Virus record (IMG/VR): IMGVR_UViG_3300033146_003955
Location: 94,813-158,812 of that record
Source: a virus
Direction: 5' to 3' (one strand)
Length of the DNA: 64,000 nt
Shown: one piece after another, positions 9,901-63,563 of the stretch
Numbering within the stretch: the stretch's first letter is position 1
Layout: each line of letters opens with the position of its first letter
Translations under genes and position numbers: made by a program
Notes under the pieces: generated by a model
The model's input: the letters and a program-made list of their open reading frames with translations, nothing else
Told to the model about the DNA's origin: nothing
Databases searched by the model: none

Positions 9901-10872
9901 GGAGTTGTTGTAGCAGGCCTTGCAGTATTAGGAGCCGGGCTTTTATTACTTGGTATTCAAGTCACACCAGTTATTCCCGCCTTATTAGGGGTTGGGCTTG
10001 CTTTTGTTATGATGGGAGCAGGTATGGCTTTGGTTGGTTTAGGGTTTAAATTCTTCAGTGAAGGTATTGCTAAACTTTCAGGTAATATCGGTACTCTTGC
10101 TTTAGGATTAATTCTTACGATAGCTGCTTTTACTGCTTTTGTGACGGCTATAAATTTCTTTATTGTACCGATAGCAACTGCTATTATTGCTATTGCCGCA
10201 TTAGGTGTAGCTACAATAATTCTTGGAGCAGGTATGGCTCTTTCCGGCCTTGGCATGCAACTTATGGCTAAAGGATTTGCATCTCTTACTGAACATTCTA
10301 AGACTATGTTGAATACATCAATAGAACTAGCAAAATCTTTAGTCGCATTAGCTGTTGGTATGGGTATTGCTGCCGCGATTATGATGCCTTTTGTTGGTAC
10401 TTTTGGAGCCGCTGCTATTACTCTTGGTTTATTTGCTCTCGTTGCTTTAAGCATAGGTGCTGCATTTAAAATGATGGGTACTGGAACACAATTATTAGCT
10501 AAAAATGCTGTTGGAGCAATAGAAGGCATAAAAGGAATTAAGTCGGAATTAGGTGGTATGAAAGATGTAGCCAAAGATTATATCAGTTCTATAGATGATA
10601 TAACAACATCATTTATTAAATTGGGCCAGGTTCAAGATAAAGGACTTAAAGGATTAAAAGCATACAAGAAGATTGTTCATGATATTCAAGTTGAAGTTAA
10701 AAAAAGCGGTGATGTTGATAAAGCTGCAGCTCAAATGGATACAGCTAATGAACATTTAAATAAAATATCCGGGTTTACTTCTAGAACAGCTCTTGCAGTT
10801 GAGAAGTTAGCAGATACTGTTAAGGGTGGCGGTAATAATTCTTTTGTAGCGACCATGGAAACTGGTCTTTAA
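6922..10872 (+). CDS. tail tape measure protein
   Basis: 1316 aa, helical Ala-rich N-half, long Gly/Ala hydrophobic repeat region, tail-module context. Confidence 0.85.
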   Translation: MGTMNALKMRLDFLFNTKEAVQGVASLTKGFNNFGNTLDIMKNFIPVHDNMTGSINQISENLKNAVESGKEYGDVLNNYIKSGNSIDGLAGGMERLYEAQIKVGQSIKTAGQIDILTGAVNVLDRAYINAGSSANQLHEILKGFDPKGDRFNFGDQLTEQIIELEGSNEKLAKEFREVNSAAAEFKKNLNGKQLVQYSTLTMKLAEEFAHGTISAKAYTKQLEQLNHRTTFLNQTLPKLKGQLAGLAGGTLSTMTTALGALRIMDDAVSAQAQTVETTHRLALANATVFEGAGENAKSFTKTVMDMNKAVRDVGTQTGVSMTRAAEAMNSLAAARVSDNIDDLNELAITSIRMSQAFGISEGAAADLMRQLVLVGGLDVDSVNAMAEEMADVQAVFGLTAEEATEVTAQVGKVINRMTAMGANSIKNAKIVAKEVAKMTTSFTKAGLSAQDASGMIDRFMDPTKLEDNVLLWHSMGISVADGLAMMTGDASAMEGMTEKLTATAVQLKEQYGGNALALQAMAEAHGMTIQQINQLTNAQERQKNMSAEEIKKMEEQATLESQAEQARQSMKESLTRLAFIGNVLMQTFLMPLIDILTPIASKIAKVAQGFTEFTKKLGPFGGAIRGTMGLIILFTALTKTNLLKLLMPIGKLGEGFGGMFGGIASGAKKGIAALGKFVTLAAGKLKNKALSEGLGKLGSSMQSVAGGDNSKTIKGGASNAIGDKSMDNGTDATSKLSKINGKGLMQVGIGLAAIAAAVFLLALAFKVLVDVVQNASGPDMIKAGLIMALMMVGLGAAAFALGKISAVAGPEIMLLGGAMLMVAGSVAILAGAFWLLNEVIQNDGGWKTFGIMAAMMAILVVAVLALAAAGTAAAVPLITLGGAMLMIAGSIAILGAGLFLIGWGLDKIIQAISKTGKEFAEGAKNMAAGIFSLLIPLGLLGIVGGAAALGLSLFAIAMAVIGLAAMALVMMFNVIKDSITGFVDGLRYISENAGVVVAGLAVLGAGLLLLGIQVTPVIPALLGVGLAFVMMGAGMALVGLGFKFFSEGIAKLSGNIGTLALGLILTIAAFTAFVTAINFFIVPIATAIIAIAALGVATIILGAGMALSGLGMQLMAKGFASLTEHSKTMLNTSIELAKSLVALAVGMGIAAAIMMPFVGTFGAAAITLGLFALVALSIGAAFKMMGTGTQLLAKNAVGAIEGIKGIKSELGGMKDVAKDYISSIDDITTSFIKLGQVQDKGLKGLKAYKKIVHDIQVEVKKSGDVDKAAAQMDTANEHLNKISGFTSRTALAVEKLADTVKGGGNNSFVATMETGL

Positions 10873-10889
10873 GGAGCATAATTAATAAT

Positions 10890-11567
10890 ATGAAAATAAT
10901 AAAATATTTATATGAACCCATACTTGAACTTCAATGTTCTACATGTATGGAAGAGCACACCATGCGTTTTGATATTTGTAAAGATTTTAAAAACGATGAA
11001 AATCATGAAGCTTTATACGTTGATTTAATAAGCGAATATACTCCTGGTTTTTTTGAGAGATTAAAGACTTTTTTTCATTATAGGAAGAATTGGAAAAAAT
11101 ATATAAATGGGAAAGAACAAACATATAACGGTATAACTCTTGATATTACACAAATTAGAGAAATGTACCCAATCTTAATAGACAAACTTTTAAAGTATGA
11201 AACTATAACTTTAAAGGATGTAGAAGAAATAGAAAGTTGGGACAATTTTCCAACTATAGAATATGATAAAGATGGATGGGCAGAACAAATTATATTTAAT
11301 GGAAATGATATTGTTTTATCTATTGAAGCTCACGAAAGTAATGGAAAAAATATAATTCAATTTTTTACTCTTGGCTATAGATTTTATGATGAGATGAAAC
11401 AGAAAGATATTAATAGACGTACATGGTATTACTTGATATATAAAAGTAAGGCAATGATTAGTAATTATGAAGGATTTATTGATTATAATAATACTAAGTT
11501 ATTTCTTTCAGTATTATACTATTTAATTAAAAATATGAACAAAGAAACAAACCAACTCAATAAATAG
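10890..11567 (+). CDS. hypothetical protein inserted in tail module
   Basis: own GCATAATT-N6-ATG element; CxxC near N-terminus. Confidence 0.65.
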   Translation: MKIIKYLYEPILELQCSTCMEEHTMRFDICKDFKNDENHEALYVDLISEYTPGFFERLKTFFHYRKNWKKYINGKEQTYNGITLDITQIREMYPILIDKLLKYETITLKDVEEIESWDNFPTIEYDKDGWAEQIIFNGNDIVLSIEAHESNGKNIIQFFTLGYRFYDEMKQKDINRRTWYYLIYKSKAMISNYEGFIDYNNTKLFLSVLYYLIKNMNKETNQLNK

Positions 11568-41453: not shown

Positions 41454-41481
41454 ATTATACCACGTTCTTTGAAATGTCCAA
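41454..41481 (-). promoter_or_regulatory. leaderless promoter TTGGACA-N15-TATAAT-N6-ATG
   Basis: same layout at 43010-43037 and 62988-63015. Confidence 0.75.
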
Positions 41482-43009: not shown

Positions 43010-43037
43010 ATTATACCATATATTAGGAAATGTCCAA
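43010..43037 (-). promoter_or_regulatory. leaderless promoter TTGGACA-N15-TATAAT-N6-ATG
   Basis: same architecture as the promoter of the C-terminal half. Confidence 0.75.
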
Positions 43038-44137: not shown

Positions 44138-44512
44138 TTATTTAACTATTTTAAGGACCGTTTTGGTCTTATGTAATTCTTTTTCTAATTCTAGATACTT
44201 TTTACCTTTTTTAGAATTGTTACCAAATTTACTCATTTTATTTTTAATAGATGATATCTTATTTTCGTATTGTTCAATTAATTCTTTTTTCTGTCTAGAA
44301 TCAACTTTTTCTAGGATGGGGTTTTTTTTAATACCATCTATATTATAAAGACTTATGGTAGTTTCTTCACCATCAGGATTCTTAAGAGTAAAATATTCCT
44401 CATCATCCTTCATATCTTTAATAGTCCAGGTATCAAGACTGTTAGGAATAGTTACTTCGTCGCCCACCTTAAGATCACCTTTTATTTCATTAACTATTTT
44501 TTTAAAATTCAT
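44138..44512 (-). CDS. possible head-internal protein
   Basis: MNFKKIVNE, internal ILE. Confidence 0.6.
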   Translation of the reverse strand: MNFKKIVNEIKGDLKVGDEVTIPNSLDTWTIKDMKDDEEYFTLKNPDGEETTISLYNIDGIKKNPILEKVDSRQKKELIEQYENKISSIKNKMSKFGNNSKKGKKYLELEKELHKTKTVLKIVK

Positions 44513-45582
44513 ATTAATACCTCACTTAATTTTTCTTCAATATTTTCATTATATTTTATTCTTATTAATTGTATGTTATTATCTTTACAATATTTATTTT
44601 TTATTGCATCATTTTGTTGTCGATATTTTAAACCTTTTTTACCATCCCAAATTTCTTTGATAACAAAATGTTGTTCACCATCATATTCTACTAATATATT
44701 TGTTTCAGGAAGATAAAAGTCAAAAGGCAACGGTTTGACATTTTTACAATCATTAAATTTATATTGTCTTATATATTGTATATTTTTATTATCTAAATAT
44801 TCAGCTACAGCTTTTTCACCTTTAGATTCATTACACTTAAAACAGCCTTTACCTTGTAAATGACTTTTCGGATTTTGTTCGAATAAGCCATGTTTTGGAC
44901 ATATTATTTTAATTTTAGTTTTATTGTTTATATATTTTACTAAAGAATAATCATATTTATTATTATGTTTTAATTTAACTTTTTGTATAAATTCACTATT
45001 ACTATATTTATATTTTCCAGAACATATTTTACAGCCTTGCCCGTTTAAATGTGCATATGGTTGCTGTTTAAATATACCGTGTTCTGGACATATTATTTTA
45101 ACTTTAGTTTTACTATCTTCATAATCGATTAATGAATAATTATATTTATTATTATGTTTTAATTTAGCTTTTTTAATAAATTCTTTTGTAGTTAATTTAT
45201 ATGTTGTACTACATTTAAAACATCCATGTGTATAATGATTATTTGGGGTTTGTTCAAATATACCATGTTCTGGACATATTATTTTAATTTTAGTACTATT
45301 ATTTATATAATCAACTAAAGAATAATCATATTTGTTGTTGTGAATTTTAGAAGCTTTTTTTATGAATTCTCCTGTAATCAATTTATGTTTATTCACGTTA
45401 CATTTTGAACAGCCTCTACCACGCAAATGGTTTGATATTAATTGCCAAAATATACCATGCTCTGGACATATTATTTTAACTTTAGTTTTACTATCTTTAT
45501 AATCAACTAAAGAATAATCATATTTATTCCCATGTACAGCTTTAGCTTTTTTTATAAATTCTTCAGTAGTTAACTTCTTCAT
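44509..45582 (-). CDS. putative homing endonuclease (KYDYSLV/ICPEHG zinc repeats + PD-(D/E)XK)
   Basis: four FIKKA..HxNKYDYSLV.Y...IICPEHG...GC..C repeats; LPFDFYLP...VEYDGEQH. Confidence 0.8.
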   Translation of the reverse strand: MKKLTTEEFIKKAKAVHGNKYDYSLVDYKDSKTKVKIICPEHGIFWQLISNHLRGRGCSKCNVNKHKLITGEFIKKASKIHNNKYDYSLVDYINNSTKIKIICPEHGIFEQTPNNHYTHGCFKCSTTYKLTTKEFIKKAKLKHNNKYNYSLIDYEDSKTKVKIICPEHGIFKQQPYAHLNGQGCKICSGKYKYSNSEFIQKVKLKHNNKYDYSLVKYINNKTKIKIICPKHGLFEQNPKSHLQGKGCFKCNESKGEKAVAEYLDNKNIQYIRQYKFNDCKNVKPLPFDFYLPETNILVEYDGEQHFVIKEIWDGKKGLKYRQQNDAIKNKYCKDNNIQLIRIKYNENIEEKLSEVLI

Positions 45583-51472: not shown

Positions 51473-51862
51473 TTATTCACTCCTTCTTCTAAGTATTCTA
51501 CTTAATGCAGAATCATCATCATCTGAATTAGAAAAACTATCTTCTGAATCGTTATCATCATTAAAATCAGAATCACTTGAACCGATTGTATCTAGTTCCA
51601 TACTATGTGTAAACATAGGACCTACATCAAGACTAGAAGATGTATTTTCAATTTCTGAAATATAAAAATTTAAAGTTTTACTTGCATCTTTTAAAATATT
51701 TAAAACATCTTCTCGGTCAAATTTCTTTTTAACGTCTTTAACGAATTCGGCTATAAGAGCGAGACTGTCTTCTCTTGCTAAATCTTTATTAACTTTTTCT
51801 TCTATTGAATAAGATTTTTTATTTTCTTTTACTAATTTTTTATTAAATTTTTCCATTTTCAC
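51473..51862 (-). CDS. acidic possible head-internal protein
   Basis: KFNKKLVKE N-terminus, D/S-rich tail. Confidence 0.6.
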   Translation of the reverse strand: MKMEKFNKKLVKENKKSYSIEEKVNKDLAREDSLALIAEFVKDVKKKFDREDVLNILKDASKTLNFYISEIENTSSSLDVGPMFTHSMELDTIGSSDSDFNDDNDSEDSFSNSDDDDSALSRILRRRSE

Positions 51863-52785
51863 AATAATATCTCCGTTAATTTATCTTCAATATTTTCATT
51901 ATATTTTATTCTTATTAATTTTATGTTATTATCTTTACAATATTTATTTTTTATTGCATCATTTTGCCGTCTATATTTTAAACCTTTTTCTCCACCAAAA
52001 AAATCAATTGGTTTATAATGTTGCCTACCGTCATATTCAATTAATACATTATTATTAGGTAAATAAAAATCAAAAGGTAAAGGTCTTTTATTTATACAAT
52101 CATTAAATCTATATTGTTTTAAATAATCAATATTTTTATCGTCTAAATATTTAGCAGTAGCTTCTTCGCCTTTAGGTTCATTACAGGCAGGGCAACCATG
52201 TCCGTTTAAATGGTGGTCTGCTCTTTGTGTAAAAACGCCATGTTTTAGACATATTACTTTTATATTTTTATTAATACCTTGATAATCAACTAAAGAATAA
52301 TCATATCTGTCACCATGTACAGCTTTGGCTTTTTGTATAAAATATTGCGTATTTTTAATTTGTTTTAATCTACTTATTTTATTACCACATTTATTACAAT
52401 TTCTTCCTATTAAATGGTTATTCGGAAACTGTTTGAATATGCCATGTTCTGGACATATTATTTTAACCTTAGTATAATTATTTACATAATTAACAAGGGA
52501 ATAATCATATTTATTACCATGTATTTGTTTAGCTTTCTCTATAAATTCGTATTTAGACATGCTTCTTTGCTGTTTTATTTTGATATATCTACATTTTGAA
52601 CAACCTTGTTTTTGTGAAACATGTAAGTTAGGCCTTTGTTCAAAGACTCCGTGTTCAGGACATATTATTTTAACTTTAGTCTTAGCATTAATATATTCAA
52701 CTAAAGAATAGTCATACTTTTCACTATGTACAGCTTTAGCTTTTTCTATAAATTCTTCAGTTGTTAAACGTTTATTGCTCACCAA
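51859..52785 (-). CDS. putative homing endonuclease, paralogue of 44509-45582
   Basis: three zinc repeats; LPFDFYLP...IEYDGRQH. Confidence 0.8.
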   Translation of the reverse strand: MVSNKRLTTEEFIEKAKAVHSEKYDYSLVEYINAKTKVKIICPEHGVFEQRPNLHVSQKQGCSKCRYIKIKQQRSMSKYEFIEKAKQIHGNKYDYSLVNYVNNYTKVKIICPEHGIFKQFPNNHLIGRNCNKCGNKISRLKQIKNTQYFIQKAKAVHGDRYDYSLVDYQGINKNIKVICLKHGVFTQRADHHLNGHGCPACNEPKGEEATAKYLDDKNIDYLKQYRFNDCINKRPLPFDFYLPNNNVLIEYDGRQHYKPIDFFGGEKGLKYRRQNDAIKNKYCKDNNIKLIRIKYNENIEDKLTEILL

Positions 52786-56199: not shown

Positions 56200-57242
56200 T
56201 TTTCTTCCTCACCCTTCCAACTTTCTTTTAAAACTTTCTTAAACATATTTTTACATGTTAATTTCCAAAAAGATTCCACATCTTCTTTGTCTAAATCCTC
56301 ATAAAAATTGAGAGGTATTTTAGCAGCTCCTGCCCCAGATTTTCCACCGCCGAAATCCCCAAATAGGTCTTTCATCATTTGATTTACGTCAACAGATACC
56401 AGGGAAGAACGTACACTTACATGTAATTCTTTTTTGCCGACTACAGCAAATATAACGGCGGTTGTAACACTCTCCATTCTTGTATACTCTTCTGAGAGAA
56501 TAGAAATTGCGTCCCTTTGCTCTGCCGGTATATAACCAATACCACCAACAAATACACCATTTTTCTCTACAAAATTGCCTTCTTTATGAAGAGTTAAACG
56601 TGTGTCATAGAGATAACGTGGAAAGGGATAATTCATAACCTTCTGTAAAGCTTCTTTATCAGATATTTTTAAAAGTTCTTGATATCCAATAAAGTCGTCT
56701 TCACTTATATTTTCACTAACTAAATCATTAGTATCAGTTCTTATGCCGAGAAGAAGAGCTGTATATATAGATATATTTTCATTATTAACTTCATGGTTTA
56801 ATTCCTTCATCATCCGCCACATTAAAGCTGCACACGAACCGTATGAAGGCTCAATAATTTTAAATTTAGCTTTGGAGATAGATTTATGATGATCTATAAC
56901 AAGTATAGGATTTTCGCCCCTGCTGTTATTTTCTGTACAGTCTATACAAACATCAATTCCATTAGGTATAGGATGTCCATTTCTTCTTTCCATCGCAACA
57001 TTTAATACATTAACAATAGTTTTATTTTGAGGATGTGATACTTCCCCAGAATAATAAATGGTAGAATCCAAGCCTTCTTCTTTAAACTTTAACTGAAGGC
57101 CTAAACCAGCCCCAATTGCGTCGGGATCTGGAGCGTCATGAAGATTTATTCTTATAATATGATCTTCATTCTCCTCTTTATATTTTTTTAGATGATCAAT
57201 TGCTTGACGTAATTTTCCTTCCATCTTTATTCGTTCAGCCAT
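56196..57242 (-). CDS. DHH-family phosphoesterase (NrnA-like)
   Basis: HDAPDPDAIG, IDHH, GIRTDT, SVRS, GGGK. Confidence 0.85.
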   Translation of the reverse strand: MAERIKMEGKLRQAIDHLKKYKEENEDHIIRINLHDAPDPDAIGAGLGLQLKFKEEGLDSTIYYSGEVSHPQNKTIVNVLNVAMERRNGHPIPNGIDVCIDCTENNSRGENPILVIDHHKSISKAKFKIIEPSYGSCAALMWRMMKELNHEVNNENISIYTALLLGIRTDTNDLVSENISEDDFIGYQELLKISDKEALQKVMNYPFPRYLYDTRLTLHKEGNFVEKNGVFVGGIGYIPAEQRDAISILSEEYTRMESVTTAVIFAVVGKKELHVSVRSSLVSVDVNQMMKDLFGDFGGGKSGAGAAKIPLNFYEDLDKEDVESFWKLTCKNMFKKVLKESWKGEEEK

Positions 57243-58317
57243 TTACAATCCTCTTACAACTATTTAATTCCTCATATATAGGGCAACTTCTACATAATCC
57301 ATTAGAAAATTTGCAGTTACATCCTTTTGAAGAATTTATTAATTTTTCTCTCCATTCTTTAGTTTGTTTATGATTCCAAACATCTGCTATAAAATCGTTA
57401 CAACCTAAAACATCAATACCAGCAACTATATCTTCCGCAAAAGAACATGGAAAATAAACACCTTTATCATTTATATAACTTGAAAAAATTCCGGACTCAC
57501 AAGGCTCCGCGAGTTGGGTATACACCTTCTCGTTTTTTACACCCTCGATACTCTTAAGAAAGAGTGGAGCTGAACATGAATCAAAGCCGAAGTTAACTTC
57601 CTTTTCTATCATGTACTCAACCAACTTCTTATATTTATCTGGGTGGGAGATTGAATGGAAACTACCTTCAGCAGCGCCCTTCTCTTTACACTGGAGAAAA
57701 ACAAGAGCATTTAATTTTTCAGTTCTTATATCACTCTTTATATCATCAGCTAATTTAAAAGCAGAATCATAAGTTTCTTCAGCAACCATATAATGAATAT
57801 TTATTTGGTCCATACCCGCATCGGTTAAAGCTTTAATCCAGTTGAATGATTTATTTTGGTCATAAATTGAAATAGCGCAAGCACCAAAAATACGTTTAAT
57901 ATCAGCAACTCTTTCTGGCGTTATATCATCAAGACCATGCATTGTAAAGTTTGGTATTACACCATGTTCTCTTGAATATTCAGCCATCTTAAAAAAGTCT
58001 GGGTTAGCATCTATATCAGTAATGCCAAAGGCAATTTGAGTGATAAAAGGTCCTAATTTGTGAAAAATAGTACGAAACTCTTCAAATGTCATATTATAAG
58101 ATGAACCAACTCCATTTGATTTATAGCAGAAGGTACAATTACCTTTACATTTTCCGGAGGATATTTCAAGATCTAATATTTCAGGCCCTGGGGCAAATGC
58201 AGGGTCATCTTCTTTAGTCTGTCCCCACCTCTCAAAATATCCAGTAACTTTGTCAAAATTGTAATTGTAATATTGAGAACGAATGTGTTTTGATGTTTTA
58301 TTTTCTTTTATTTTCAT
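57235..58317 (-). CDS. radical SAM protein with SPASM/twitch-like C-terminus
   Basis: CKGNCTFCY; PCESG...YI...G..FPCSF; C-terminal Cys cluster. Confidence 0.9.
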   Translation of the reverse strand: MKIKENKTSKHIRSQYYNYNFDKVTGYFERWGQTKEDDPAFAPGPEILDLEISSGKCKGNCTFCYKSNGVGSSYNMTFEEFRTIFHKLGPFITQIAFGITDIDANPDFFKMAEYSREHGVIPNFTMHGLDDITPERVADIKRIFGACAISIYDQNKSFNWIKALTDAGMDQINIHYMVAEETYDSAFKLADDIKSDIRTEKLNALVFLQCKEKGAAEGSFHSISHPDKYKKLVEYMIEKEVNFGFDSCSAPLFLKSIEGVKNEKVYTQLAEPCESGIFSSYINDKGVYFPCSFAEDIVAGIDVLGCNDFIADVWNHKQTKEWREKLINSSKGCNCKFSNGLCRSCPIYEELNSCKRIVNG

Positions 58318-60920: not shown

Positions 60921-61259
60921 TTATCCTTTCTTCAATAATTTTTTAGCCAATTTAGGTAGAAGGCTATCAATCTCCTCTTGGGTAAAACTTTTCAATACCA
61001 CATCATTAAACTTCCATACTGTTTCACCTTTATGAATACCCTTTCTTAGATAGTCATAATATATAGCATCTAATTCAAGTTCAGGATGTTCTCTCCCCCA
61101 CTGAATTTGCATAACACATGATCTGTGAATATACATACGAGGCCCACCACCTCTACCTTTAAAACGATAAGACTTCTCACCATCAAAATCACCTTGTTTT
61201 AATTGATAAGCTCTTTCAGTTTTTTGTATATCTTTTCCGCATATCATACACTTTTGCAT
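60921..61259 (-). CDS. CxxC...HxxC zinc-binding protein
   Basis: CMICG...IHRSC; C-terminal LAKKLL. Confidence 0.6.
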   Translation of the reverse strand: MQKCMICGKDIQKTERAYQLKQGDFDGEKSYRFKGRGGGPRMYIHRSCVMQIQWGREHPELELDAIYYDYLRKGIHKGETVWKFNDVVLKSFTQEEIDSLLPKLAKKLLKKG

Positions 61260-62981
61260 TTAATAATCCACGTTAGGATACTGCTTGTAGTAATCTTTAT
61301 CTGTATCTTCCGCCCATTTAAATTTCTTTTGAAGTGTTGGTGTGAATACTCTTTTCACTTCAATATCATTAGCCTTACAGAAAGAATATATAATTCTAGG
61401 TGAAATGTAATTAGTTTTAGAAGTTCCGGTAGCTATCCCGGAAGTCTTTTTCTTAATATCAATTTTAGTCTCAAGATTTTCCACTCTCATTTTCAATCTT
61501 TCGACTCTTGCTTCCCAAGTTGTTTTTTTCTTTTTGAAAGTTGCTTTAGCTCTTCTTATTGAATCTTTCTGTTTCACACCAGTATATTTCTTTTTAGCGA
61601 GTTTGACTCTTTCATCTTTTATTTTTTTAGCTTTTTCGATTTCAATTGATGCTTCAGCCTTTTTATCTCGAAGCTCAATTTTCATATTCTTAAGCTTATC
61701 TTTCATATTCTTAAGAGAAATTTTGTACGCAGGAGAGACTGCAGTTTGATGGTTAAGCTTAATCGCAACTTCAAGATTTGCATCTGTGAAAAATTTCATT
61801 TTCTGGCCAACAGTCATACCTTTAAGATTACCCTTACTTAACTCTTCAGCAAGAAGTTTTGAACCATAAGCAGTTCTGAATACTTTAGCAGTTACACCTT
61901 CAACTATTGAAGATAGAAATTCATTAACATCCTTAGAGGTAATTCCAGGAAAGAGTTGAGCTGAAGGTTTTTTACCCTTACAAAGCCATACAAAATTTCT
62001 AATCATAGATGGAGAGAATGATACAACTTTGTTATATCTAATTGAATCTTTACCAAGGAAATCAAATTCAATAGTTCCTTCCACCTCATCAATTTTAATA
62101 TGTTCTGAGAGCAAAGAGGTTGCGCCGAATGTATCTGCAGTATCTTCACTTTTTTCATCACCAACTCTTATAGCAAGCTGCGAAATTAGTTTAGCAACAG
62201 TTGCAACTTTCCGAGTCTGACTAAGTTTATCATTCAATTTCTTATCAATTTCAGCATTGATAAAATCAAGATTTTTAGCCAACTTAATTGCTTTATTAAA
62301 TTTACTCTGGTCTGATTTCTGCTTAACTATAGAGTCATTGCTGAATAAAACTTTTTTATATTCCCCAGTTAATTCCTGTTTCCAGGACGCAACCATAAGA
62401 GCATTTTTGTTTTCTACCACTTCTTTCCAAGAGTGACCTTCAGGAGGCTTAGGACCGGAACCAGAACAGTTTATAGTTATATCTTCAGGGAATGTTCTAA
62501 CTTTAAGCGAACCTCTAAGAGGATGCTTCCCCCTACCCATAAAAAGTCCTGGAGGTTCAATAGTATAATTGCCAAGAGCAATTCTTTTACCATCAAGAGT
62601 AGCAAAGCCAAATTTCTCTTTACGAGCAGCAGCCTCTTCCTTCTCTTTTTTCTTAATTTCTTTACTTCTATTTTTCTTAACTTCTTTCTTATATTCAAGA
62701 TCTCGGATTATATTAATAAAATCCCAATCTTTAGGAAATGAAGTTGTTTTTAATTCTTTAGAAAGAAAAGGTTTAAAATCTCTCCAAAAATTCTTTTGGA
62801 ACACAGGATCTTTTACGTAATCTGTCGCATGCTTTTGAGCCCAAAATACTGCTACTTCTTCTGCTTCCTTTGAGAGAATTACAGTTTTACCTTGTACCTT
62901 AATTTCATACTTTTGATACTGATATAAAGGAGGAAAAACTGGTCCTAAATGTGTTAACGTTTGCCATTTATTTGTTTTCAT
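61260..62981 (-). CDS. top1: DNA topoisomerase IB, long eukaryote/thaumarchaeal type
   Basis: KWQTL.H.GP.FPP.Y, EPPGLF.GRG.HP..G, IRVG, FLGKD, KVFRT, LNH, coiled-coil linker, GTSK.NYI.PRI; start set at second Met from promoter spacing (track start 62987). Confidence 0.92.
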   Translation of the reverse strand: MKTNKWQTLTHLGPVFPPLYQYQKYEIKVQGKTVILSKEAEEVAVFWAQKHATDYVKDPVFQKNFWRDFKPFLSKELKTTSFPKDWDFINIIRDLEYKKEVKKNRSKEIKKKEKEEAAARKEKFGFATLDGKRIALGNYTIEPPGLFMGRGKHPLRGSLKVRTFPEDITINCSGSGPKPPEGHSWKEVVENKNALMVASWKQELTGEYKKVLFSNDSIVKQKSDQSKFNKAIKLAKNLDFINAEIDKKLNDKLSQTRKVATVAKLISQLAIRVGDEKSEDTADTFGATSLLSEHIKIDEVEGTIEFDFLGKDSIRYNKVVSFSPSMIRNFVWLCKGKKPSAQLFPGITSKDVNEFLSSIVEGVTAKVFRTAYGSKLLAEELSKGNLKGMTVGQKMKFFTDANLEVAIKLNHQTAVSPAYKISLKNMKDKLKNMKIELRDKKAEASIEIEKAKKIKDERVKLAKKKYTGVKQKDSIRRAKATFKKKKTTWEARVERLKMRVENLETKIDIKKKTSGIATGTSKTNYISPRIIYSFCKANDIEVKRVFTPTLQKKFKWAEDTDKDYYKQYPNVDY

Positions 62982-62987
62982 GATCAT

Positions 62988-63015
62988 ATTATACTATATA
63001 ATCTCCATTGTCCAA
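62988..63015 (-). promoter_or_regulatory. leaderless promoter TTGGACA-N15-TATAAT-N6-ATG
   Basis: third copy of the motif. Confidence 0.7.
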
Positions 63016-63017
63016 AG

Positions 63018-63320
63018 TTAAGTATTTAAATATTCGAGTGCAATTGCTGCATCAAGGTCGCTGCTATTCATTTTCTTAAAAGTTATATTATTCATATGTT
63101 CTGATCTTATTTGATGGATGGTCATGGTTTTATTTACAGCTTTATATTCTTTTTTCCAGCCAATATATTCCCATCCTTCTACATCATATAAAAATAATAC
63201 ACCCTTTTTCTTTTTAATCTTTTTGCGTCTTAGGAGTTTGTAGTAATCAAACTTCCCATCATGACGGCTCCAATGTTTTGCTTTATATCTGAAACACATC
63301 CCAACCTTATAAGGTTTCAT
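63018..63320 (-). CDS. basic hypothetical protein
   Basis: GGAG RBS. Confidence 0.6.
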   Translation of the reverse strand: MKPYKVGMCFRYKAKHWSRHDGKFDYYKLLRRKKIKKKKGVLFLYDVEGWEYIGWKKEYKAVNKTMTIHQIRSEHMNNITFKKMNSSDLDAAIALEYLNT

Positions 63321-63323
63321 ATC

Positions 63324-63563
63324 TCACTCCGTTAGTTGAAACTTCGCAATTTGGTCTATACTAAGTAATCTAATTCTTTCTGTTATAATAGGAGAATATC
63401 CTAAACCGTTTAGAAAGAGTTTGAAATGGTCCAGCATTAAATCTGCATTAGGTTCCTCAGAGTAAACATGTTCAGCCACGCCATTAGTTATAAATGAGTC
63501 AAAATCATCATTTATATCATAATGGTCATCATCTACTTCAAATATAAATCTTGTCTTTATCAT
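63324..63563 (-). CDS. hypothetical protein
   Basis: C-terminal IAKFQL. Confidence 0.6.
   Translation of the reverse strand: MIKTRFIFEVDDDHYDINDDFDSFITNGVAEHVYSEEPNADLMLDHFKLFLNGLGYSPIITERIRLLSIDQIAKFQLTE

What the first reader, a model, noticed from the sequence alone, without database searches (positions are those of the whole stretch)
61260..63015. Eukaryote-type long topoisomerase IB in an apparent bacteriophage
Seen: 573 aa with the N-terminal core subdomains, coiled-coil linker and all five catalytic residues (R, K, R, H, Y), under the same promoter as cca. Known: bacterial and poxviral TopIB are the short form lacking these parts; the long form is typical of eukaryotes and some archaea such as Thaumarchaeota. 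Inference: cross-domain acquisition or a deep viral lineage relevant to Top1 origins.
Basis: partly seen in the sequence, partly recalled or inferred. Interest (0 to 1): 0.7.

Follow-up and report, generated by a model that had tools for sequence, protein, structure and literature searches.

The report
Eukaryote-type topoisomerase IB in large phage
An uncultured large tailed bacteriophage encodes a complete, apparently active "long" DNA-relaxing enzyme (topoisomerase IB) of the human/archaeal type; it belongs to a big, old, phage-only branch of that family that I could not find described, which bears on where eukaryotic and archaeal TOP1 came from.

Summary
Window 61260-62987 (-) encodes a 575-aa protein (573 aa from the second ATG). 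It has all three eukaryote-type Top1 domains, the R-K-R-H-Y pentad, a coiled-coil linker and a predicted fold matching human Top1 (TM 0.86-0.88).

The replicon is a 159-kb fragment of a large tailed phage, not a chimera: TopIB's neighbours are syntenic with relatives of up to 388 kb that carry T4-like terminases. No type IA or type IIA topoisomerase was found in five such records.

In trees the gene sits in a well-supported clade found only on phage or metagenome contigs. That clade is separate from Archaea, eukaryotes and giant viruses. A second small phage clade can join it (AU p=0.52). A tentative rooting puts the phage clades as sister to Archaea. A recent cross-domain transfer is therefore not supported; a deep phage lineage is.

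The published phage "topoisomerase I" (Iyer 2021; Weinheimer 2022) is a catalytic-core-only form with a different architecture.

The shared promoter with cca is real as a motif (TTGGACA-N14-GTATAAT-N6-ATG), but the genes lie 20 kb apart.

This scan has already noted the same phenomenon on other DNA (57 notes in at least 44 genomes). The bacterial host is unidentified and enzyme activity is untested.

The parts
61260..62987 (-). TopIB ORF: 575 aa from the first ATG, 573 aa from the second ATG at 62981; stop codon at 61260-61262
62346..62969 (-). Cap / DNA-binding region (core subdomains I-II; Pfam Topoisom_I_N, aa 7-214). Includes R152, which aligns with human R364
61656..62333 (-). Catalytic core (Pfam Topoisom_I, aa 219-444) with R274, K313, R371 and H413
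61446..61733 (-). Coiled-coil linker: two antiparallel helices, aa 419-467 and 471-514. Very basic (35 K+R in 96 residues). His-to-Tyr distance is 114 residues
61290..61490 (-). C-terminal domain (Pfam Topo_C_assoc, aa 500-566) with the catalytic Tyr527 (codon 61407-61409), preceded by N526
62988..63015 (-). Sigma-70-like promoter motif TTGGACA-N14-GTATAAT, directly abutting the first ATG. The second ATG lies 6 nt after the -10 box, a leaderless-type geometry
60921..61259 (-). 112-aa Cys-rich small ORF that starts directly after the TopIB stop, so probably co-transcribed. A homologue lies just downstream of TopIB in relative L008

Best explanation
The ORF is a functional long-form (eukaryote/archaeal-type) type IB DNA topoisomerase encoded by an uncultured large tailed bacteriophage. 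Shown: it has the cap, the catalytic core, a long basic coiled-coil linker and a C-terminal Tyr domain, with an intact R-K-R-H-Y active site, and it lacks the charged N-terminal extension of eukaryotic enzymes. It belongs to an old phage-borne clade carried by several lineages of large T4-like phages, distinct from the archaeal and the eukaryote-plus-giant-virus clades. Inferred from the family's established mechanism: it clamps duplex DNA, nicks one strand through a 3'-phosphotyrosyl link at Tyr527, lets the duplex swivel under linker control, and reseals, relaxing both positive and negative supercoils without ATP or Mg. Inferred, about 60%: it is made early from a host-RNA-polymerase (sigma-70-like) promoter and serves as the phage's own replication and transcription swivel. 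In that role it would take the place of the type II topoisomerase that T4-like phages normally encode, because no other topoisomerase is recognisable in these genomes.
For: Domain architecture and E-values. Pentad invariant in the clade. AF2 model with pLDDT 90.7, and Foldseek TM 0.86-0.88 to human Top1-DNA complexes over the full length. The parent is an IMG/VR viral record of 158.8 kb with a baseplate spike, tail and tail-fibre hits, a T4 gp2-like DNA end protector hit, RNR and a ligase. Fourteen to seventeen parent-genome genes flank TopIB in relatives L007, L008 and L009. A T4-like TerL is present in relatives G002 (388 kb, 98% complete), G003 and G006, and no NCLDV capsid was found. Basal clade members sit among gp44, UvsY, UvsW, RNase H, UvsX, T4 alpha-glucosyltransferase and SLT genes. 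Careful ML tree: phage A 99/99, Archaea 100/99, NCLDV 100/99, eukaryotes 99/93. AU p=0.52 for a single phage clade. In 185,579 GTDB species genomes, the one close relative lies in a MAG that also holds a TerL 60% identical to that of G002. No PF00521, PF00204 or PF01131 in five TopIB phage records, with controls positive. Promoter motif, with the -10/ATG geometry conserved in relatives.
Against: No biochemical or expression data exist. The parent contig is incomplete (CheckV about 80%) and itself has no terminase or recognised capsid gene, so its assignment as a tailed phage rests on tail genes and on synteny with relatives. Absence of other topoisomerases is judged by Pfam models only, so divergent phage-specific versions could be missed, and four of the five records are incomplete. 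The host is unknown, and host gyrase or Topo IV may do much of the work. Relationships among the phage A, phage B and archaeal clades are unresolved without an outgroup (64/20), and the rooted tree rests on a very long outgroup branch.
Confidence: 0.85

Rival explanations
1. Recent horizontal acquisition: this phage, or its close kin, picked up TOP1 lately from an archaeon (for example Nitrososphaeria), a eukaryote or a giant virus.
For: The long form is otherwise characteristic of those groups (PMC2621148, PMC4824112). The best PDB sequence hit is 6z01, which I take to be the archaeal CsTOP1.
Against: Identity to any archaeal, eukaryotic or NCLDV homologue is at most about 40%, while about 60 phage or metagenome homologues span 41-70%. 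The phage clade is monophyletic and lies outside each of those well-supported groups. The clade is spread over several distinct phage lineages with different gene neighbourhoods.
Confidence: 0.04
2. Assembly chimera or contamination: the TopIB gene, which lies about 1 kb from the contig end, comes from a cell or a giant virus and was joined to phage DNA.
For: The gene lies within the last 2.8 kb of a linear, incomplete contig.
Against: The genes just downstream of TopIB, and larger genes further along the contig, have homologues beside TopIB in independent contigs L007, L008 and L009 from other samples. GC content is uniform at 0.30-0.33. The gene carries the same phage promoter motif as the cca pieces 20 kb away.
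Confidence: 0.02
3. Host-takeover tool rather than a housekeeping swivel, or in addition to it: an early-expressed ATP-independent relaxase that collapses the negative supercoiling of the host chromosome to shut down host transcription and replication, or that counters a supercoiling-dependent defence.
For: The sigma-70-like promoter suggests early expression by host RNA polymerase. TopIB relaxes negative supercoils, which bacteria actively maintain (established enzymology). The same promoter drives the cca pieces, another function aimed at host-phage conflict over tRNA.
Against: There is no direct evidence. Its conservation as the only recognisable topoisomerase in 160-500-kb phages is explained more simply by the phage's own replication and transcription needs. 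The two roles are not mutually exclusive.
Confidence: 0.12

Closest known systems
Eukaryotic nuclear topoisomerase I (human TOP1 Topo70; PDB 1K4T, 1A36, 1RRJ)
   Same: Cap, catalytic core, coiled-coil linker and C-terminal Tyr domain. R-K-R-H-Y pentad. Residues aligned with the human camptothecin contacts R364, D533 and N722 are conserved as R152, D314 and N526. Full-length fold match at TM 0.86-0.88. Linker length is in the eukaryotic range: His-to-Tyr 114 residues against 91-165.
   Different: About 34% identity. No charged N-terminal extension (median about 257 aa in the eukaryotes sampled, 4 aa in the phages). Encoded by a bacteriophage. [quoted passage not shown]
Archaeal TOP1 of Nitrososphaerota, Aigarchaeota and Bathyarchaeota (Caldiarchaeum CsTOP1, which I take to be PDB 6Z01; PMC8748870, PMC4824112)
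   Same: Same three-domain architecture without an N-terminal extension, and similar size. 6z01 is the best sequence match among solved structures (E 1e-101). The archaeal clade is the phage clades' nearest group in the rooted and FastTree analyses.
   Different: 35-39% identity. A separate, well-supported clade (100/99). Most archaeal enzymes have a shorter linker (median His-to-Tyr 67), though some are longer (Nitrosopumilus 99, Bathyarchaeia 154). Cellular rather than viral.
Long-form TopIB of giant viruses (NCLDV; dozens of GVMAG contigs in IMG/VR, including records whose lengths match CroV and Megavirus chilensis)
   Same: Virus-encoded, three-domain long form with an intact pentad.
   Different: 33-38% identity. 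These form a clade that is sister to eukaryotes, not to the phage clade. Shorter linker (His-to-Tyr about 70). The hosts are eukaryotes.
'Phage-specific' topoisomerase I of subgroup 2.2 jumbo phages (Phage NCTB, phiRSL1, Lu11, PaBG; Iyer et al. 2021, PMC7824862) and the PF01028 gene of T7-like marine jumbo phages (PMC9123017)
   Same: Phage-encoded and carrying the TopIB catalytic core, which has the tyrosine-recombinase fold.
   Different: The NCTB protein has only PF01028 (aa 307-526) behind an unrelated 300-aa N-terminus. It has no Topoisom_I_N and no Topo_C_assoc. hhalign covers the core only, and tblastn similarity is marginal (E 3e-3).
Short TopIB of poxviruses and bacteria (vaccinia/variola, Deinococcus radiodurans)
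   Same: Homologous catalytic domain and the same chemistry.
   Different: About 310-370 aa, with a different small N-terminal domain and no linker. Only E about 1e-3 by sequence and TM 0.27-0.32. Bacterial examples carry R-K-R-N-Y.

Membership tests
Long-form (eukaryote/archaeal-type) topoisomerase IB, TOP1 | N-terminal cap / DNA-binding region (core subdomains I-II, Pfam PF02919) | tested here: met
   PF02919, aa 7-214, E 2.3e-64, against a cut-off of 25 bits
Long-form (eukaryote/archaeal-type) topoisomerase IB, TOP1 | Catalytic core PF01028 with Arg, Lys, Arg and His at the aligned positions | tested here: met
   PF01028, aa 219-444, E 8e-64. R274, K313, R371 and H413 are invariant in A1 and align with the RKRH of eukaryotes, archaea and NCLDV
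Long-form (eukaryote/archaeal-type) topoisomerase IB, TOP1 | C-terminal domain bearing the catalytic tyrosine (PF14370) | tested here: met
   PF14370, aa 500-566, E 1.5e-21. Y527 is invariant
Long-form (eukaryote/archaeal-type) topoisomerase IB, TOP1 | Antiparallel coiled-coil linker between the core and the C-terminal domain | tested here: met
   AF2 helices 419-467 and 471-514 at pLDDT around 90. The model superposes on human Top1 including the linker
Long-form (eukaryote/archaeal-type) topoisomerase IB, TOP1 | Overall clamp fold like the solved TOP1-DNA complexes | tested here: met
   Foldseek TM 0.86/0.88 to 1rrj and 1k4t over 577-579 columns
Long-form (eukaryote/archaeal-type) topoisomerase IB, TOP1 | ATP- and Mg-independent relaxation of positive and negative supercoils through a 3'-phosphotyrosyl intermediate | not testable with these tools
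   Needs purified enzyme, a Y527F control and plasmid relaxation assays
Eukaryotic nuclear TOP1 specifically | Long charged N-terminal extension, and placement inside the eukaryotic clade | tested here: not met
   N-terminal extension of about 4-6 aa, against a median of 257 in eukaryotes. It lies outside the eukaryote clade
Archaeal TOP1 (Nitrososphaerota, Bathyarchaeota, Aenigmatarchaeota) | Placement inside the archaeal clade | tested here: not met
   Archaea are monophyletic at 100/99, excluding all phage sequences
Short TopIB (poxvirus/bacterial type) | About 310-370 aa, small N-terminal domain, no cap or linker | tested here: not met
   575 aa with a cap and a linker. Short forms match only at E about 1e-3 and form the distant outgroup
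Phage-specific catalytic-core-only TopIB (Iyer 2021, jumbo phage subgroup 2.2) | PF01028 core fused to an unrelated N-terminal region, without PF02919 or PF14370 | tested here: not met
   NCTB protein: PF01028 only. The window protein has all three domains
Caudoviricetes genome (replicon identity) | Tailed-phage hallmark genes (terminase large subunit, tail and baseplate) | tested here: inconclusive
   The parent contig has a baseplate spike OB domain, tail, tail-fibre and tape-measure-like hits and a gp2-like end protector hit, but no TerL in its 159 kb. The syntenic relative G002 has a T4-like TerL, as does the TopIB-carrying record G006, whose locus shares only two genes with the parent. 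No NCLDV capsid was found

The most novel reading that the evidence does not exclude
Long-form TopIB is an ancient component of large tailed-phage replication modules, and the patchy archaeal TOP1 (Nitrososphaerota, Bathyarchaeota, Aenigmatarchaeota, some Asgard), and through it possibly the eukaryotic enzyme, was seeded by transfer from viruses to cells. This would replace vertical inheritance from the common ancestor of Archaea and Eukarya, as proposed in 2008 (PMC2621148). My trees show the phage clades and Archaea as reciprocally monophyletic sisters, so the direction of transfer is open.
Probability: 0.15. Interest if true: 0.85.

Novelty: new member of a known kind. Interest (0 to 1): 0.6.

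Why it matters
The literature I could search places the long TopIB only in eukaryotes and some archaea (PMC2621148, PMC4824112, PMC8748870). That distribution has been used to argue that the enzyme dates back to the common ancestor of Archaea and Eukarya. A large, deeply diverged clade carried by bacteriophages adds another major lineage. It lies nearest to the archaeal clade, which makes virus-cell exchange a testable alternative for the patchy archaeal distribution.

Functionally, these 160-500-kb phages seem to manage DNA supercoiling with a single ATP-independent swivelase instead of the T4-type topoisomerase II, which would be a different solution to the topology problem in bacteria.

Practically, the phage enzymes are compact TOP1 homologues with a eukaryote-length basic linker. 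The residues aligned with the human camptothecin contacts are conserved. They could therefore serve as tractable models for linker-controlled rotation and drug sensitivity.

Tried and rejected
- tblastn of the full protein against 50,697 GenBank phage records gave no match at E 1e-5. With the catalytic core alone at E up to 10, only marginal hits appeared (NCTB 3e-3, BCSR5 0.8).
- NCBIfam and PHROGs gave no family for the protein.
- A single-sequence scan of IMG/VR found nothing; the alignment-based scan worked.
- Terminase searches in the parent contig, by Pfam model and by two relatives' TerL proteins, found none. I read this as incompleteness, not as evidence against a phage.
- The NCLDV capsid model hit nothing anywhere, controls included, so that negative result is weak.
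- Sequencing runs: no RNA holder is listed. Only small partial DNA shares appeared (0.22 in a marine sediment metagenome, 0.16 in a hydrothermal vent metagenome). I did not lay these, so I claim no habitat or expression.
- I first read the long linker as a feature shared only by eukaryotes and phages, then withdrew this: archaeal linkers range from 56 to 263 residues.
- The 'Gammaproteobacteria' MAG as a host hint: rejected. That MAG also holds a TerL 60% identical to G002's, so it contains co-binned phage contigs, and its GTDB class consists of 0.7-1.8-Mb genomes.
- Rooting with short bacterial TopIBs was done, but I treat it as tentative because the outgroup branch is longer than 3 substitutions per site.
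- Literature: seven searches gave no report of a three-domain TopIB in phages. My recollection that CroV was reported to carry a eukaryote-type TopIB could not be confirmed in the held library.

Full report
**The object.** The ORF listing shows an uninterrupted minus-strand ORF at window 61260-62987, 575 aa. Pfam finds the three domains that together define the eukaryote-type enzyme: Topoisom_I_N (aa 7-214, E 2e-64), Topoisom_I (aa 219-444, E 8e-64) and Topo_C_assoc (aa 500-566, E 1.5e-21). Against all PDB sequences, the best match is 6z01, E 1e-101. The search output names it only 'DNA topoisomerase I'; PMC8748870 describes the Caldiarchaeum CsTOP1 structure, and equating the two is my own identification. 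Human Top1 follows at E 1e-90, aligned over residues 7-566. The short enzymes of Deinococcus, vaccinia and variola reach only E about 1e-3.

In a 27-sequence alignment of the closest relatives, the catalytic pentad R274, K313, R371, H413, Y527 is invariant. The same columns read RKRHY in every archaeal, eukaryotic and giant-virus sequence I aligned. An AlphaFold2 model built on that alignment is confident (pLDDT 90.7, pTM 0.80). It contains two long antiparallel helices, 419-467 and 471-514, which form the linker. Foldseek superposes the whole model on human Top1-DNA complexes at TM 0.86-0.88. The residues aligned with the human camptothecin contacts (R364, D533, N722, from my knowledge of the structures) are R152, D314 and N526. 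The linker is very basic, with 35 K+R in 96 residues. Its '573 aa' corresponds to the second in-frame ATG at 62981.

**The replicon.** The window is the last 64 kb of an IMG/VR viral record of 158,812 bp. The record is linear, CheckV estimates it as about 80% complete, and it holds one TopIB copy. It has low, even GC, tightly packed genes and giant ORFs of up to 3,500 aa. Recognisable genes include:
- a baseplate-spike OB domain;
- tail, tail-fibre and tape-measure-like PHROG hits and a T4 gp2-like DNA end protector hit;
- RNR, an ATP-dependent ligase and a MoxR/VWA pair;
- a 5'-3' exonuclease, two DHH phosphoesterases, radical SAM enzymes and a class II CCA-adding enzyme.

No terminase is present in this fragment. 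However, TopIB's neighbours are conserved in independent contigs. L007, L008 and L009 share 14-17 parent-genome genes around their TopIB at 30-57% identity. L009's record is 388 kb, 98% complete, and carries a Terminase_6N TerL. L010's record also carries one, 60% identical to it.

That TerL is T4/gp17-like, about 30% identical to the terminases of Flavobacterium phage immuto, cyanophages and uncultured 484-595-kb phages. No NCLDV capsid was found, although that model also hit no control genome. Identical or near-identical TopIB proteins occur on contigs of up to 499 kb. The contig is therefore a fragment of a large tailed phage, and the gene is not a chimeric insertion.

**Hosts are bacterial.** More distant clade members sit among T4-type genes:
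- the gp44 clamp loader, UvsY, UvsW, RNase H, UvsX/RecA, an NAD-dependent ligase and an OmpA domain;
- RNR, dUTPase, T4 alpha-glucosyltransferase and dCMP deaminase;
- RecA and a lytic transglycosylase.

They also use GGAG Shine-Dalgarno sites. The window gene has a sigma-70-like promoter. The specific host is not identified.

**Promoter.** Upstream of TopIB lies TTGGACA-N14-GTATAAT, directly abutting the first ATG. The exact motif followed 6 nt later by an ATG occurs three times in the 159-kb genome: before TopIB and before the two cca pieces. Eight relaxed matches were found, against about 1.4 expected from shuffles. The TATAAT-ATGNNN-ATG arrangement recurs upstream of TopIB in L007, L008 and L009, and L172 has a similar -10 box abutting the start. 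A start about 7 nt after the -10 box would fall on the A of the second ATG. A leaderless mRNA giving the 573-aa protein is therefore a reasonable inference, but it is not shown. The genes are 20 kb apart.

**Relatives and phylogeny.**
- The word-indexed search found about 60 unnamed metagenomic proteins at 41-70% identity. Below 40% it found eukaryotes, Aenigmatarchaeota and Nitrososphaeria.
- The exhaustive HMMER search found 3,403 homologues.
- IMG/VR holds 137 relatives: seven large non-GVMAG contigs at 40-63%, then dozens of giant-virus MAGs at 33-38%.
- Among 185,579 GTDB species genomes, only one record has a close relative (54%). Everything else is archaeal at 39% or less. That one MAG also carries a TerL 60% identical to G002's, so it contains phage contigs.

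A careful ML tree (59 sequences, 601 columns, LG+C20+F+G4 PMSF) gives these groups:

| Group | Support (UFBoot / SH-aLRT) |
|---|---|
| Phage clade A (contains the window) | 99/99 |
| Phage clade B (L012, P0056, P0124) | 100/100 |
| Archaea | 100/99 |
| Giant viruses | 100/99 |
| Eukaryotes | 99/93 |
| Split {eukaryotes + giant viruses + L058/L062} vs {phage A, phage B, Archaea} | 100/99 |

The order among phage A, phage B and Archaea is unresolved (64/20). A larger quick tree and a 228-sequence FastTree agree. An AU test does not reject phage A plus B as one clade (p=0.52). A tentative rooting with five short bacterial TopIBs (R-K-R-N-Y, very long branch) gives (Archaea, (phage B, phage A)), with SH-aLRT 95 and 90, and places the root on the eukaryote side. 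Recent acquisition from any sampled cellular or giant-virus group is therefore not supported. A deep phage-borne lineage, nearest to the archaeal one, is.

**Linker length.** The His-to-Tyr distance is 105-114 residues in most phage sequences, about 70 in giant viruses and 91-165 in eukaryotes. In Archaea it varies widely: median 67, Nitrosopumilus 99, Bathyarchaeia 154. PMC8748870 reports that linker length and flexibility govern controlled rotation and camptothecin sensitivity.

[quoted passage not shown] Five TopIB-bearing phage records were searched: the parent, three incomplete relatives and the 98%-complete 388-kb genome. None has a GyrA/ParC/gp52 domain, a GyrB/gp39 domain or a type IA topoisomerase, while the controls were positive. 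I therefore infer, at about 60%, that TopIB is the phage's own swivel and replaces the type II enzyme typical of T4-like phages. An additional role in relaxing the host chromosome is possible.

**Prior knowledge.** The papers I could search state that the long form is confined to eukaryotes and certain archaea (PMC2621148, PMC4824112, PMC8748870). Iyer et al. 2021 describe a 'phage-specific version' of topoisomerase I in subgroup 2.2 jumbo phages. I checked their example, Phage NCTB: it has only the PF01028 core behind an unrelated N-terminus, with no cap and no C-terminal domain. Weinheimer and Aylward 2022 likewise report PF01028 in T7-like marine jumbo phages. I found no description of a three-domain TopIB clade in phages.

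Within this scan the same phenomenon has been noted repeatedly on other genomes (57 notes in at least 44 genomes), with the same conclusion. Those are unchecked AI notes and I did not use them as evidence.

**Verdict.** This is a genuine, probably active long-form TopIB in a large bacteriophage. It is a full member of the TOP1 family by every feature testable here, and it belongs to a phage-specific deep clade. The enzyme itself is a new member of a known kind. The interest lies in its distribution and evolutionary position, and in its likely role as the sole topoisomerase of these phages.

Noticed in passing
window 62988-63015, 41454-41481 and 43010-43037 (minus strand); L007, L008 and L009 just upstream of position 10001: The -10 box GTATAAT is followed after exactly 6 nt by an ATG at TopIB and at both cca pieces. 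TATAAT-ATGNNN-ATG is conserved upstream of TopIB in three relatives. This suggests a class of leaderless early transcripts in this phage lineage.
   Followed up: partly
window 60921-61259 (-): A 112-aa Cys-rich (CxxC) protein starts immediately after the TopIB stop and ends in LAKKLLKKG. A 28%-identical homologue lies just downstream of TopIB in L008. It could be a conserved partner or simply a neighbour.
   Followed up: no
G000 56377-57456, 62368-63438, 81836-83116 and 93180-94259; window 44509-45582 and 51859-52785: At least six paralogous proteins of about 310-430 aa with DUF723, DUF4379 and Zn-ribbon domains are scattered through the genome. All are 51-56% identical to one ORF in L007 (14865-15719). 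They look like a family of mobile (homing-endonuclease-like) genes.
   Followed up: no
L081 (IMG/VR contig of 121.5 kb), TopIB at 10001-11500: A contig labelled viral carries a three-domain TopIB that branches inside Archaea as sister to Bathyarchaeota (SH-aLRT 99). It is either an archaeal virus with TOP1 or an archaeal contig misfiled as viral.
   Followed up: no
L058 and L062 (IMG/VR contigs of 53 kb and 277 kb), TopIB ORFs of 780-870 aa: Long TopIBs with a 130-aa N-terminal extension and C-terminal PT repeats form their own branch outside eukaryotes plus giant viruses (100/99). The kind of virus or organism is unknown.
   Followed up: no
L089/L090 (G006:C1:77413-80283): The TerL of this TopIB phage matches G002's TerL in two pieces (aa 1-106 and aa 101-613). 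About 1 kb separates them inside one 994-aa open frame without stops, which looks like an intein or another in-frame insertion in the terminase.
   Followed up: no
L181-L185 (genomes G207, G118, G200, G021 and G127): The GTDB class that holds the 'Gammaproteobacteria' MAG G008 consists of 0.7-1.8-Mb genomes. Five of the 200 other genomes sampled carry short TopIBs (339-374 aa) with an R-K-R-N-Y pentad. The NCBI label of the MAG may be wrong.
   Followed up: no
L172 1862-2828: In a relative represented by 335-499-kb contigs, FliM and FliMN_C (flagellar switch) domain genes and an RtcB ligase lie about 6-8 kb upstream of TopIB. These are unusual for a phage.
   Followed up: no
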